Source: Escherichia coli
Lineage (GTDB): Bacteria; Pseudomonadota; Gammaproteobacteria; Enterobacterales; Enterobacteriaceae
Direction: 5' to 3' (one strand)
Length of the DNA stretch: 64,000 nucleotides
Assembly (NCBI RefSeq): GCF_030013595.1
Contig: NZ_CP122768.1
Shown here: positions 58,001 to 61,000 of the stretch, piece by piece
Position numbering within the stretch: the first letter of the stretch is position 1
How the letters are laid out: every line of letters begins with the position of its first letter
Made by a program: the position numbers

Positions 58001-61000
58001 TTTTGCATCTGCAGTCGACATTTCATTGCTGGTTGAAATATCACCTATTTTTTCATACTGCGATTCAACTTTTTCAAATTCCGCTTTGGTCATCAATTCA
58101 GCGGCATAGACATTGGTAACGGCTAACGCTAACGCACCGACTAACATTTTAGAGATTATTTTCATATTACGGCTCCAGAGTTGTTATCACACTATCACCC
58201 ACCCACATTATTGGGTTGATTAATAATTAGTTCAGTCAGGGCATAAACGCCAGTAACCGGAAATAAGACACTTTGTGATCTCTCTCGCACCCGATTATTT
58301 TTGGTAGAAATATGATGAAGTTACTTCACTTATTTATGGATGAAATCACTATGGATCCTTTGCACGCCGTTTACCTGACCGTAGGACTGTTCGTGATTAC
58401 TTTTTTTAATCCGGGAGCCAATCTCTTTGTGGTAGTACAAACCAGCCTGGCTTCCGGTCGACGCGCAGGGGTGCTGACCGGACTGGGCGTGGCGCTGGGC
58501 GATGCATTTTATTCCGGGTTGGGTTTGTTTGGTCTTGCAACGCTAATTACGCAGTGTGAGGAGATTTTTTCGCTTATCAGAATCGTCGGCGGCGCTTATC
58601 TCTTATGGTTTGCGTGGTGCAGCATGCGCCGCCAGTCAACACCGCAAATGAGCACACTACAACAACCGATTAACGCCCCCTGGTATGTCTTTTTTCGCCG
58701 CGGATTAATTACCGATCTCTCTAACCCGCAAACCGTTTTATTTTTTATCAGTATTTTCTCAGTAACATTAAATGCCGAAACACCAACATGGGCACGTTTA
58801 ATGGCCTGGGCGGGGATTGTGCTCGCATCAATTATCTGGCGAGTCTTTCTTAGTCAGGCGTTTTCTTTGCCCGCAATGCGTCGTGCTTATGGGCGTATGC
58901 AACGCGTTGCCAGTCGGGTTATTGGTGCAATTATTGGTGTATTCGCGCTACGCCTGATTTACGAAGGGGTGACGCAGCGGTGAGCAGATAATTTACTCTC
59001 TACGTAATCAACCTGATTTGCCGAATCCCGACCATCGGCGATGATAGCCCCCGTAATGCGTGGTCCTTATTTCCGATAAGTTTACTTGAGTCTTTAGCTT
59101 CCCATTTCAGCCCACTCTCCCCTGTGTGGGCTTTTTTCATTGCTCTGACCCGTCCTGAATAGCCAAACAATGGCAATGTTTCACTTTGCAGGGATGATAA
59201 TAAGGGGATCTGATTCAGAAGAGTTATGAAAAGTTGGACCGCCATCGAGGCCTCGAACCCCGTACCATACAACAATCCTGGTTGTCGTCTGCTCTTCCTG
59301 ATGAGCTAATGGCGGTTTTTGATATGAGCCTTACAGCATATTTTCTGTCAGGCTTGAGTGCGATGCGTAAGATACAGAAAAGACCCCACACAAACATGAT
59401 GGAATTATGATTTTTTTCATATGAATGTCAACCCACACATTCACAAAACATCTGCATGAGATCATTTTTTATACACCGTATAACTGCGAAACCACTGCTG
59501 ATGCTTTTTTAAGCGAAGCGTCGCCGATCACAACAAAATATCGGCGAAAAAGGCGGTGGAATGCCATTTGGCATACGGATATACAGATGAAATGATTACC
59601 TGCTTTGCGATTCACTCTCTGCTGGAATAACAACTCGCAGGTGGAACCCTTTCTGAACTAAAGAGTGTAGCGGATTTTAACGTGCTTATTTACAGGATAA
59701 TATCTGTCACCTAATTCCTGCACTCTATTAGATATCCATTGATTTAATCGCGCATCATCTCTGTATGTTTTTACGTCCAGAACAGAGAGCAATAACATCA
59801 CCAGTGATTCAGGAAAAACAGGGTAGATATTTTTTAAGTGTAATAATAATCCATGCGCAAGCGCCTGCTTAATGGGCGCGTCGGTCTCCGGGATAGACGA
59901 CATTTCGCGAAGCCATTTTTCCACATGCATACACTCTTTCCCTTTAGGGAAAAGTCTCAGCAAAGGCATATGGTGTTCAAGAAGAATACATTTGCAATCT
60001 GTTCGCACTGAATCGATAAACTGCACTAATTTCTTAAGCCCGGTAAAGCGTCCAGCCTGCACGTTTGCTTTAATATCAAGAAACGCATCGTCCTGGTCAT
60101 ATACCCAAACTGTCCCTTTTTGATTTTCAAGTATGCGAAAAACAAACTTAACCGGGTGATCAGGGTAATCCATCCAGTCATAAAATCCAGGGAAATCATT
60201 AAACTGCACATTTATGGTGAGTGCGTTATCGTCTGACCACTCACAGTCTCGTACGGCAGCCATGAGATGAATGAGTTTGTCGTCATCGACTAAATCATCA
60301 CGACAATCATAAGGATAATCATAATATTGTTTAATCAAAACCTTGAATATATCGACACAGGAGACCAGGGAGCTTTTGATATCCTCTGGTAACTGATTGT
60401 TTTTTACTGTATTAAGTATGCTTTGTTGCGTATATGGCATCAAATTATTGTGCGGAGCTTTTAATGATATCATCGCGATCTCTCTTAAATAAAAATAAAC
60501 GTCGCAGATAATAAAGCCCTGATTAAACCAGGCACTATCAGAAATCGCTCATAACTAACGTGTGAAGTATTGTGTACTGGAGGGAGTTAATTTAACAATT
60601 TGAATTTACGTTATAGGTTTTACTGCTACTTTGATATTATTTCGCTCTCCTTAACTAAAAAGTTAAGTGGAGAGCGAAGTTAATATGTTAAACCACAGGG
60701 TATTTATTAATTTTTTCAGTCTGTTAGTGTGCGATTATCGATAACAAAACGATATTTCACATCTCCTCGCAGCATTCGCTCATAGGCTTCATTAATTTGA
60801 TCGGCCCGAATCATCTCTATATCAGCCACGATGCCATGTTCGGCGCAAAAATCGAGCATCTCCTGAGTTTCTGGAATGCCGCCAATCATAGAACCGGCTA
60901 TCGCACGGCGTTTCATGATCAGGTTGAAAACTTCCGGCGATTTATGCGGTGTCGCAGGCGCACCAACCAGCGTCATGGTGCCATCACGCTTCAGCAAGGT

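What the first reader, a model, noticed from the sequence alone, without database searches (positions are those of the whole stretch)
59000..59275. A strong plus-strand terminator lies inside the annotated small gene yahM
AGCCCAC-loop-GTGGGCT followed by TTTTTT reads as the yahN terminator on the plus strand, yet it falls within the minus-strand yahM ORF (encoding ...KKAHTGESGLKWEAK). The ORF has no recognisable domain, so yahM may not be a real protein-coding gene.
Basis: seen in the sequence. Interest (0 to 1): 0.3.

Follow-up and report, generated by a model that had tools for sequence, protein, structure and literature searches.

The report
yahN terminator inside doubtful yahM gene
The hairpin is very likely the transcription stop signal of the transporter gene yahN, and the small gene yahM annotated across it on the other strand evolves like non-coding DNA and is probably not a real protein gene.

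Summary
A G+C-rich hairpin (59109-59132) runs into a six-T tract (59132-59137) on the + strand. It lies 126 nt after the yahN stop codon and inside the minus-strand yahM ORF (59000-59245). It is the only such site in the 64-kb window.

- The hairpin, and about 70 nt of yahN 3'UTR before it, are better conserved across Escherichia than yahN itself. Stem changes keep pairing only on the + strand.
- The yahM frame evolves neutrally: pN/pS is 1.3-2.8, against 0.08-0.14 for yahN.
- The frame is broken in at least 20% of complete E. coli genomes and in other Escherichia species.
- YahM has no homologues or domains outside E. coli.
- Published data place Rho-dependent termination within the ORF.

yahM is nevertheless transcribed, from a conserved promoter. 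That promoter first drives a near-invariant tRNA-like element derived from a phage tRNA. This element holds the yahM start codon inside its acceptor stem.

No RNA 3'-end data for the yahN strand and no translation data for YahM could be found, so both conclusions are inferred. The terminator itself is ordinary. The two conserved non-coding islands are the more interesting by-product.

The parts
58312..58983 (+). yahN coding sequence (LysE-family exporter, 223 aa), the gene the terminator serves
   Evidence: ORF. Pfam LysE E = 3.6e-60 and TIGR00949 E = 6e-71. RefSeq annotates it as yahN. Under purifying selection, pN/pS 0.08-0.14.
58984..59039 (+). Proximal yahN 3'UTR, variable
   Evidence: 75-82% identical to other Escherichia lineages. 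0.107 common SNP sites per nt within E. coli.
59040..59108 (+). Conserved distal yahN 3'UTR core. Predicted as a 5' stem-loop (59034-59077) followed by an A/U-rich single-stranded linker.
   Evidence: 67/67 aligned bases identical to L006, which has two 1-nt deletions. 62/67 identical to E. albertii, which has frame-breaking indels. yahN third codon positions are only 61-66% identical. One common SNP in 69 nt within E. coli. Fold z = -2.62 on the + strand against -0.79 on the minus strand. No covariation is available.
59109..59137 (+). Intrinsic (Rho-independent) terminator of yahN: stem A-GCCCAC / GTGGGC-T, 10-nt loop, six-T tract at 59132-59137
   Evidence: Identical in L006; only loop changes in E. 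albertii. The 95-nt block 59047-59141 is exact in 4283 of 5173 E. coli genome records. The C59113T variant keeps G.U pairing on the + strand only.
59000..59245 (-). Annotated yahM ORF (81 codons plus stop; an upstream TTG extends it to 59275). Probably not a functional protein-coding gene.
   Evidence: Neutral pN/pS. Frame broken in at least 20% of genomes. Not conserved in other Escherichia. Orphan. No domains.
59139..59230 (.). Fast-evolving spacer between the two conserved islands. It encodes YahM residues about 6-35.
   Evidence: 84%, 49% and 32% identity to L006, L007 and L005, with many gaps. 0.087-0.163 common SNP sites per nt within E. coli.
59235..59315 (-). tRNA-like element in the yahM 5' leader. 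The yahM ATG (59245-59243) and a GAGG motif lie within its 3' part: ATG in the acceptor stem, GAGG in the T arm.
   Evidence: ARAGORN cloverleaf with an encoded CCA end. The minimum-energy fold is a cloverleaf, -30.8 kcal/mol, z = -2.67. No Rfam tRNA hit. 89/90 identical in four Escherichia lineages. No common SNP within E. coli. About 76-86% identical to the 'tRNA-OTHER' of lambdoid/Stx-phage tRNA clusters.
59397..59431 (-). yahM promoter (TTGACA at 59431-59426, 16-nt spacer, CATAAT at 59409-59404) and transcription start at about 59397
   Evidence: 11/12 match to the consensus. 84-97% conserved across Escherichia. Cloning primer JW10169 of Adams et al. 2021 starts the yahM 5'UTR at 59397. 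The promoter was confirmed by a reporter assay, with IHF as repressor (bioRxiv 10.1101/2025.05.13.653802).
59259..59259 (-). Published Term-seq RNA 3' end inside the tRNA-like element, 14 nt upstream of the yahM ATG (K-12 coordinate 345390 +)
   Evidence: Adams et al. 2021, supplementary files 1 and 3. The flanking sequence given there matches the window. Coordinates convert as k = 404649 - w.
59064..59064 (-). Peak of a published Rho-termination region, classed 'internal' to yahM (K-12 coordinate 345585 +). Resolution is coarse because 800-nt windows were used.
   Evidence: Adams et al. 2021, supplementary file 2. Read counts upstream/downstream were 264/45 without bicyclomycin and 480/510 with it; Rho score 6.2, p = 3e-33.

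Best explanation
The hairpin plus T tract at 59109-59137 is the Rho-independent terminator of yahN. It closes a 3'UTR of about 154 nt, whose last ~100 nt are under strong nucleotide-level selection in Escherichia.

The 81-codon yahM ORF on the opposite strand is an accidental open frame, not a conserved protein gene. It starts inside a conserved tRNA-like element, crosses a fast-evolving spacer, and then reads the antisense of the conserved yahN 3'UTR and terminator. The invariance of its C-terminal half is borrowed from that non-coding element.

The locus is nonetheless transcribed on the yahM strand, from a conserved sigma-70 promoter with its start at about 59397. That transcript first makes the tRNA-like leader and is then largely ended by Rho within the 'ORF'. 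This limits antisense transcription into yahN.

Shown here:
- the sequence anatomy;
- the conservation pattern;
- neutral evolution of the yahM frame;
- frame disruption in many lineages;
- orphan status of YahM.

Taken from the literature: promoter activity, the 3' end in the leader, the Rho-dependent drop in reads, and overlapping convergent transcription.

Inferred: that the hairpin actually terminates yahN transcripts, and that YahM is not made or is not functional.
For: Terminator:
- Anatomy and uniqueness in the window.
- Position 126 nt after the yahN stop codon, on the sense strand.
- Block 59040-59138 is 97/97 identical to L006 and 90/97 identical to E. albertii, while yahN third codon positions are 66% and 61% identical. 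Chance probabilities are 2.7e-18 and 7.4e-13.
- The E. albertii changes fall in the loop, not the stem, and homology ends a few bases after the T tract.
- Within 115 E. coli sequences there are 2 common SNP sites in 99 nt, against 8.6-15 expected.
- The 535-record C59113T variant preserves pairing only in the + strand RNA.
- On the minus strand the hairpin is followed by GAAAUGGG, not a U tract.

yahM is not a conserved gene:
- pN/pS is 1.3-2.8 in the yahM frame against 0.08-0.14 for yahN in the same sample; Fisher p = 1.6e-4 and 8.6e-5.
- Frame-breaking alleles: T5 or T7 tract, a stem deletion of one C, and Q12stop in O157:H7.
- These alleles sum to at least 1064 of 5173 complete-genome records.
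- PGAP annotates O157:H7 with two hypothetical ORFs here instead of yahM.
- Protein 'homologues' are frame-shifted versions of the same DNA.
- The ORF is split in L006 and E. albertii, and replaced or deleted in E1V33 and MOD1-EC7003.
- yahN orthologues in Citrobacter, Salmonella and Edwardsiella have no yahM beside them.
- Only E. coli-type hits appear among 5.8 billion and 1.84 billion proteins.
- No Pfam or NCBIfam match.
- The start codon and GAGG motif are base-paired in a cloverleaf of -30.8 kcal/mol.
- A Rho-termination region and a 3' end in the leader (Adams et al. 2021, PMC7815308).

Transcription on the yahM strand is real:
- Promoter confirmed, with IHF repression.
- yahM-yahN is listed as a convergent excludon (PMC12288877).
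Against: - No RNA 3' end on the yahN strand near the T tract appears in the one Term-seq data set I could search. Low yahN expression in those conditions could explain this, but I could not check it.
- The 81-codon ORF is intact in about 80% of E. coli genomes.
- A GAGG motif lies 5 nt upstream of the ATG.
- yahM RNA is regulated and induced in several transcriptome studies.
- I found no ribosome-profiling or proteomic data for or against YahM. Translation is therefore untested, not disproved.
- The terminator is not invariant. About 15% of genomes carry a T5 tract, and 217 records also carry a bulged stem (-6.2 kcal/mol).
- Polymorphism-based pN/pS rests on 21 sites, and some metagenome contigs may contain assembly errors. 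I reduced this risk by requiring a minor-allele count of at least 2 or 3.
- The Rho-termination position comes from 800-nt windows and is only approximate.
Confidence: 0.72

Rival explanations
1. yahM is a genuine but young (E. coli-specific, possibly de novo) protein-coding gene. It happens to overlap the yahN terminator and has been lost in some lineages.
For: - The ORF is intact in about 80% of complete genomes.
- A GAGG motif lies 5 nt upstream of the ATG.
- It has a conserved, regulated promoter.
- Its RNA is induced on contact with host cells and under stress.
- RefSeq annotates it as 'protein YahM'.
Against: - No purifying selection on the frame.
- Repeated independent disruptions, including in large successful lineages: O157:H7, Nissle-type, and the 535-record T5 lineage.
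- Residues 36-69 show no variation even at synonymous sites, and they coincide with a block that is conserved in species where the frame is broken.
- The start site is buried in a stable cloverleaf.
- Rho terminates within the ORF.
Confidence: 0.15
2. The hairpin is a bidirectional terminator, or mainly a signal for the yahM-strand transcript (terminator or pause site), and not specifically the yahN terminator.
For: - The same stem can form in the minus-strand RNA, at -14.2 kcal/mol.
- The published Rho-termination peak on that strand lies about 45 nt downstream of the hairpin.
- Convergent gene pairs often share terminators (general knowledge).
Against: - On the minus strand the stem is followed by GAAAUGGGAAGC, with no U tract.
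- The read drop on that strand is abolished by bicyclomycin, so it is Rho-dependent and not intrinsic.
- The C59113T variant breaks the minus-strand pair but keeps G.U on the + strand.
- The conserved block ends a few bases after the T tract, which is its + strand 3' side.
- The fold z-score favours the + strand.
Confidence: 0.08
3. The hairpin plus T run is a chance feature or part of a repeat element, with no termination role.
For: - No experimental 3' end was found.
- The built-in scan did not report it.
Against: - It is unique in the 128 kb scanned (both strands), against 0.07 expected.
- It is single-copy in each genome.
- It is conserved far above neutral expectation across species.
- There is no Rfam repeat or sRNA family match beyond a weak resemblance in the terminator itself.
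Confidence: 0.03

Closest known systems
Rho-independent (intrinsic) terminators of E. coli, including those that lie inside a convergent neighbour
   Same: A G+C-rich stem-loop is followed directly by a run of six U. It sits downstream of a stop codon on the sense strand. The stem is conserved while the loop varies.
   Different: The loop is long (10 nt, or 6 nt if one extra inner pair is counted). The site is 126 nt from the stop codon and is preceded by about 70 nt of unusually conserved 3'UTR. No mapped 3' end is available yet.
Spurious or 'phantom' annotated ORFs and lineage-restricted orphan genes of the E. coli y-ome
   Same: The ORF is short, has no homologues or domains, evolves neutrally, is often frame-shifted, and lies antisense to a functional element.
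   Different: It has its own conserved, experimentally confirmed promoter. Its 5' end coincides with a conserved tRNA-like RNA. The transcript may therefore matter even if the protein does not.
3'UTR-derived Hfq-dependent small RNAs of enterobacteria (for example CpxQ, SdhX, MalH)
   Same: The last ~100 nt of an mRNA are more conserved than its coding region. The predicted layout is a 5' stem-loop, an A/U-rich single-stranded stretch and an intrinsic terminator with a U tract.
   Different: No RNA species, processing site, Hfq binding or target has been shown here. There is no Rfam family and no covariation.
Convergent 'excludon' gene pairs with overlapping transcription
   Same: yahM-yahN is listed as a convergent excludon of E. 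coli MG1655 (PMC12288877). The yahN 3'UTR overlaps 138 nt of the yahM ORF (59000-59137).
   Different: One partner is probably non-coding. Mutual repression has not been tested.
tRNA-like gene at the argN position (from my own knowledge) of lambdoid and Stx-phage tRNA clusters; annotated 'tRNA-OTHER' in RefSeq
   Same: The element at 59235-59315 is about 76-86% identical to it. The two share acceptor, D and T arms and an encoded CCA end.
   Different: The chromosomal copy stands alone, without the flanking Ile and Arg tRNAs. It has a 4-nt deletion and a 4-nt insertion around the anticodon arm. It fails the Rfam tRNA model. It has its own promoter and a leader of about 82 nt.

Membership tests
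Rho-independent terminator | G+C-rich stem-loop followed immediately by a U-rich tract on the transcribed strand | tested here: met
   A 6-7 bp stem with 5 G-C pairs, -13.3 kcal/mol, and a T6 tract directly after it.
Rho-independent terminator | Located downstream of the stop codon of a gene on the same strand, with nothing else to terminate | tested here: met
   It lies 126 nt after the yahN stop codon. There is no other + strand gene before it.
Rho-independent terminator | Stem pairing maintained in evolution on that strand | tested here: met
   The stem is identical in L006 and E. albertii, with changes only in the loop. C59113T gives G.U on the + strand only. One exception: the 217-record variant has a bulged, weaker stem.
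Rho-independent terminator | RNA 3' ends map to the U tract, and termination is measurable | not testable with these tools
   No 3' end near K-12 coordinate 3455xx appears in the supplements of Adams et al. 2021. Other Term-seq supplements were not held or did not list the gene.
Functional protein-coding gene (YahM) | Reading frame kept open across strains and related species | tested here: not met
   The frame is broken in at least 1064 of 5173 E. coli records and in L006, L007, L005 and L028.
Functional protein-coding gene (YahM) | Excess of synonymous over non-synonymous change (purifying selection) | tested here: not met
   pN/pS is 1.3-2.8, indistinguishable from the neutral expectation (binomial p = 0.80). 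The yahN control gives 0.08-0.14.
Functional protein-coding gene (YahM) | Homologues or recognisable domains | tested here: not met
Functional protein-coding gene (YahM) | Accessible ribosome-binding site and start codon | tested here: inconclusive
   A GAGG motif lies 5 nt upstream of the ATG, but both are paired in the predicted cloverleaf.
Functional protein-coding gene (YahM) | Evidence of translation (ribosome footprints, peptides, tagged protein) | not testable with these tools
   The supplements searched were uninformative or truncated.
tRNA (for the element at 59235-59315) | Cloverleaf with acceptor, D, anticodon and T arms | tested here: met
   ARAGORN cloverleaf and an independent minimum-energy fold.
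tRNA (for the element at 59235-59315) | Scores as a tRNA with the Rfam RF00005 covariance model, with a canonical anticodon loop and arm junctions | tested here: not met
   No hit even at E <= 1, while the neighbouring phage tRNAs score 62-68 bits. By my reading of the sequence and of the ARAGORN drawing, there are about four extra bases between the D and anticodon arms, and A instead of U precedes the anticodon. RefSeq labels the phage homologue 'tRNA-OTHER'.
3'UTR-derived small RNA (for 59034-59137) | Conserved 3'UTR segment that ends in an intrinsic terminator | tested here: met
3'UTR-derived small RNA (for 59034-59137) | A discrete stable RNA, chaperone binding, and a base-pairing target | not testable with these tools
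   The RIL-seq supplements are not held. There is no Rfam family.

The most novel reading that the evidence does not exclude
The annotated gene yahM may hide two unannotated functional RNAs.

(i) A ~100-nt RNA derived from the yahN 3'UTR (59034-59137, + strand) may act as a small regulatory RNA or as a cis element controlling yahN mRNA.

(ii) A promoter-driven tRNA-like RNA (59397 to about 59235, minus strand) may have been domesticated from a lambdoid-phage tRNA-like gene and kept almost invariant across the genus Escherichia.

On this reading the 'yahM promoter', its IHF control and its induction in stress and infection data sets really report on the tRNA-like RNA.
Probability: 0.3. Interest if true: 0.6.

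Novelty: new member of a known kind. Interest (0 to 1): 0.35.

Why it matters
- **Annotation.** yahM is carried as a protein in every E. coli annotation and appears in y-ome lists, expression studies and 'core perturbome' gene sets. If it is not a protein gene, those signals should be reassigned to a non-coding transcript and to the yahN 3'UTR, and the entry should be flagged.
- **Method.** The case shows a useful diagnostic. An ORF can look conserved because it lies antisense to a conserved non-coding element. Neutral pN/pS, absence of synonymous change in the conserved part, and frame-breaking indels in relatives tell the two situations apart.
- **Leads.** The two conserved islands, a 3'UTR block and a phage-derived tRNA-like RNA with its own promoter, are concrete and cheap candidates for new regulatory RNAs in the best-studied bacterium.

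Tried and rejected
- **Built-in terminator scan.** It reported nothing in 57500-60500. This was traced to its loop limit of 8 nt and replaced by a custom scan. My first custom scan also missed the site, because it required a 7-bp stem plus T6, which double-counts one T. The corrected scan is.
- **Rfam at a permissive threshold.** It gave only a weak terminator-shaped match to a betaproteobacterial sRNA (E = 0.75) and a REP-like naRNA4 match outside the region.
- **A small + strand ORF in the conserved core.** ATG at 59042, 12 codons, found by reading the sequence. It is destroyed by the 1-nt deletion in L006, so it is not the reason for the conservation.
- **A leaderless 57-codon ORF** starting at the transcription-start AUG (59397-59224). 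It has a stop at codon 4 in E. albertii (sequence) and was rejected.
- **An early mistaken conclusion.** I first concluded that E. albertii lacks the tRNA-like element. That was wrong: it is present about 100 nt beyond the terminator.
- **RNAalifold on the 3'UTR core.** No compensatory pairs, because the sequences are too similar. The structure remains a prediction.
- **Literature supplements searched for yahN 3' ends or YahM translation without result.** Adams et al. 2021 for the yahN strand, Mori 2021, Melamed 2016, PMC9023263, ExcludonFinder, PMC10746267, whose file is truncated, TERMITe and PMC11092163.
- **Unproductive paper searches.** A search for 'yahN' mostly returned an author surname. 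A search for the phage tRNA names argN/ileZ/argO found nothing.
- **Phage BLAST of 58984-59660.** Only the tRNA-like element has phage relatives. The yahM body does not.
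Full report
**Locus.** The window is E. 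coli DNA in the reverse of the K-12 orientation.
- prpR: 56194-57792, + strand.
- yahO: 57890-58165, minus strand.
- yahN: 58312-58983, + strand.
- yahM: 59000-59245, minus strand. An upstream TTG extends the ORF to 59275.
- yahL: 59658-60473, minus strand.

K-12 (NC_000913.3) coordinates convert as k = 404649 - w. I fixed this from the yahM coordinates in the y-ome paper and in Adams et al. 2021.

**Checking the observation.**
- The + strand reads A-GCCCAC (59109-59115), loop TCTCCCCTGT, GTGGGC (59126-59131), then TTTTTT (59132-59137).
- The first T of the run can pair with A59109. Otherwise the description is right.
- The hairpin folds at -13.3 kcal/mol alone, and at -14.8 kcal/mol with z = -2.76 in context.
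- The built-in scan missed it because it allows loops of at most 8 nt.
- A custom scan for a perfect stem of at least 6 bp with at least 5 G-C pairs, a loop of 3-10 nt and an adjoining run of at least six T found only this site in the whole window, on both strands. Simulated sequences gave 0.07 sites on average.
- The site begins 126 nt after the yahN stop codon and lies inside the yahM ORF. The quoted peptide is correct.

**Whose terminator is it?** I fetched yahN loci from species-representative genomes and 120 metagenome contigs anchored on the end of yahN.
- In a second Escherichia lineage (L006, yahN DNA 86% identical), the block 59040-59138 is identical at all 97 aligned bases, apart from two single-base deletions.
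- In E. albertii (L007, yahN DNA 83% identical) the block is 90/97 identical.
- The third codon positions of yahN are only 66% and 61% identical. The chance probabilities are about 1e-18 and 1e-12.
- In E. albertii the two changes within the hairpin fall in the loop. Homology with E. coli stops a few bases after the T tract and resumes only at the tRNA-like element.
- Among 115 E. coli sequences the block has 2 common SNP sites in 99 nt, where 8.6-15 are expected.
- The 95-nt stretch 59047-59141 is exact in 4283 of 5173 complete-genome records.
- A frequent variant (535 records) changes C59113 to T. This keeps a G.U pair in the + strand RNA but would give an A.C mismatch in the minus-strand RNA.
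- On the minus strand the stem is followed by GAAAUGGG, not by U residues.

Together these place the element on the yahN sense strand, as an intrinsic terminator at the end of a 3'UTR of about 154 nt.

Caveats:
- About 15% of genomes have only five T.
- 217 records (Nissle 1917 type) also have a bulged stem of -6.2 kcal/mol.
- I found no published 3' end on this strand.

**Is yahM a protein gene?**
- *Homology.* YahM has no Pfam or NCBIfam match. A word-indexed search of 5.8 billion proteins and an exhaustive phmmer search of 1.84 billion representatives found only E. coli and Shigella copies and fragments.
- *Frame shifts in the 'homologues'.* When aligned, many are the same DNA read in other frames, for example IIIPAKWNIAIVWLFRT or KKPTQGRVAEMGS*.
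- *Selection.* In colinear sequences, common polymorphisms in the yahM frame are 4 synonymous to 17 non-synonymous (pN/pS 1.3; 2.8 at the stricter frequency cut-off). This matches the neutral expectation (p = 0.80). yahN in the same sequences gives 35:15 (pN/pS 0.14; 0.08 at the stricter cut-off). Fisher p = 1.6e-4.
- *Broken frames.* The frame is broken by T-tract length change (T5, T7), by loss of a C in the stem, and by Q12stop in O157:H7. Exact-allele counts in complete genomes are 535 + 217 + 6 + 306, or at least 1064 of 5173 records (20.6%). PGAP annotates O157:H7 with two hypothetical ORFs here.
- *Other species.* The ORF is split in L006 and E. albertii. Its body is replaced in Escherichia sp. 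E1V33 and deleted in MOD1-EC7003. yahN orthologues in Citrobacter, Salmonella and Edwardsiella have unrelated downstream DNA.
- *The invariant middle.* The invariant part of YahM (residues about 36-69) coincides with the conserved yahN 3'UTR block. That block shows almost no common polymorphism of any kind, synonymous included (two sites in 99 nt), and it tolerates frame-breaking indels in relatives. The constraint is therefore on the nucleotides, not on the protein.

**What the yahM strand does.**
- A near-consensus promoter (TTGACA, 16-nt spacer, CATAAT; 59431-59404) is conserved.
- A massively parallel reporter study confirmed the promoter and identified IHF as a repressor.
- Adams et al. 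2021 (PMC7815308) cloned the yahM 5'UTR starting at w59397.
- They mapped a Term-seq 3' end at K-12 345390 (w59259), 14 nt before the ATG.
- They also found a Rho-termination region peaking at 345585 (w59064). Read counts upstream/downstream were 264/45 without bicyclomycin and 480/510 with it.
- Their strain table lists a yahM 5'UTR+ORF-lacZ fusion. The main text names 'yhaM' among fusions more than 2-fold higher in rho R66S. No yhaM construct is listed, so this is probably a typo for yahM; that is my inference.
- Rho acting within an ORF is what one expects of poorly translated RNA. It is not proof.
- yahM-yahN is also listed as a convergent excludon.

**The tRNA-like leader.**
- ARAGORN finds an 81-nt cloverleaf with an encoded CCA end at 59315-59235 on the minus strand.
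- Unconstrained folding gives the same cloverleaf, -30.8 kcal/mol, z = -2.67.
- The Rfam tRNA model does not match it.
- It is about 76-86% identical to the 'tRNA-OTHER' that lies between the Ile(CAU) and Arg(UCU) tRNAs of lambdoid and Stx-phage clusters. No other part of the locus has phage relatives.
- It is 89/90 identical in all four Escherichia lineages, while its flanks are 32-88% identical.
- It has no common SNP within E. coli.
- The yahM ATG lies in the 3' strand of its acceptor stem, and the GAGG motif lies in its T arm.

The yahM ORF therefore bridges two conserved non-coding islands across a fast-evolving spacer (59139-59230).

**The 3'UTR core.** On the + strand, 59034-59141 is predicted to form a 5' stem-loop, an A/U-rich linker and the terminator. 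The fold z-score is -2.62, against -0.79 for the minus strand. This is the layout of 3'UTR-derived small RNAs. There is no covariation, no Rfam family and no expression evidence, so this stays a hypothesis.

**Verdict.**
- The terminator is an ordinary member of a well-known class.
- The annotation of yahM as a protein gene is doubtful. I put the probability that it encodes a functional protein at about 0.15.
- The unexpected result is that two strongly conserved non-coding elements flank and underlie the ORF.

**Limits.**
- There are no direct 3'-end or translation data.
- The polymorphism counts are small.
- Metagenome contigs may contain errors, so rare alleles were excluded.
- The genome collection is clonally biased.
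- The exact-allele counts rely on the >=99% identity band for queries under 100 nt. A few partial alignments, such as H52, may be included.

Noticed in passing
window 59235-59315 (minus strand): An unannotated tRNA-like element with a cloverleaf, an encoded CCA end and an aberrant anticodon region. It is 89/90 identical across four Escherichia lineages and has no common SNP in E. coli. It is related to the 'tRNA-OTHER' of lambdoid/Stx-phage tRNA clusters and contains the yahM start codon.
   Followed up: partly
window 59040-59108 (+ strand): The distal yahN 3'UTR is more conserved than the yahN coding sequence: 100% identical to L006 and 92.5% to E. albertii. It is predicted to form a stem-loop plus an A/U-rich linker ahead of the terminator. 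It is a possible 3'UTR-derived small RNA or cis-regulatory element.
   Followed up: partly
window 59139-59230: The spacer directly downstream of the 3' end of the tRNA-like element cannot be aligned between E. coli, E. albertii and E1V33 (32-49% identity with many gaps). This could reflect repeated insertion or excision at a tRNA-like attachment site; that idea is speculative.
   Followed up: no
window 59132-59137: The T tract of the terminator varies in length in E. coli (T5, T6, T7). Each change shifts the yahM frame. RefSeq still names the truncated alleles 'protein YahM'.
   Followed up: yes
window 59224-59397 (minus strand): The published transcription start coincides with an AUG that opens a 57-codon ORF, so it would be leaderless. 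The ORF runs through the tRNA-like element. It has a stop at codon 4 in E. albertii, so it is probably not coding.
   Followed up: partly
window about 59644-60473 (yahL): yahL has no family match. It is missing from a set of E. coli genomes, where homology stops at about w59644 (for example clone D i2 and strain A21). It is also missing from E. albertii and E1V33, where yahK or yahJ follows instead. It looks like an accessory insertion.
   Followed up: partly
window 57753-57826 (minus strand): A weak Rfam match to naRNA4/CssrE (28.6 bits, below the 59.5-bit threshold) lies between prpR and yahO. It looks like a REP-type palindromic element.
   Followed up: no
Adams et al. 2021, PMC7815308: The main text lists 'yhaM' among lacZ fusions raised in rho R66S. 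The strain and primer table contains a yahM construct and no yhaM construct, so this is likely a typo that hides the only functional test of this locus.
   Followed up: partly
L002 2571-2777 and 1428-1550 (plasmid NZ_CP091840.1): The plasmid region that carries the phage-type tRNA cluster also holds strong matches to the sRNA families STnc100 and isrC, beside IS fragments. It is a phage-derived mosaic on a plasmid.
   Followed up: no
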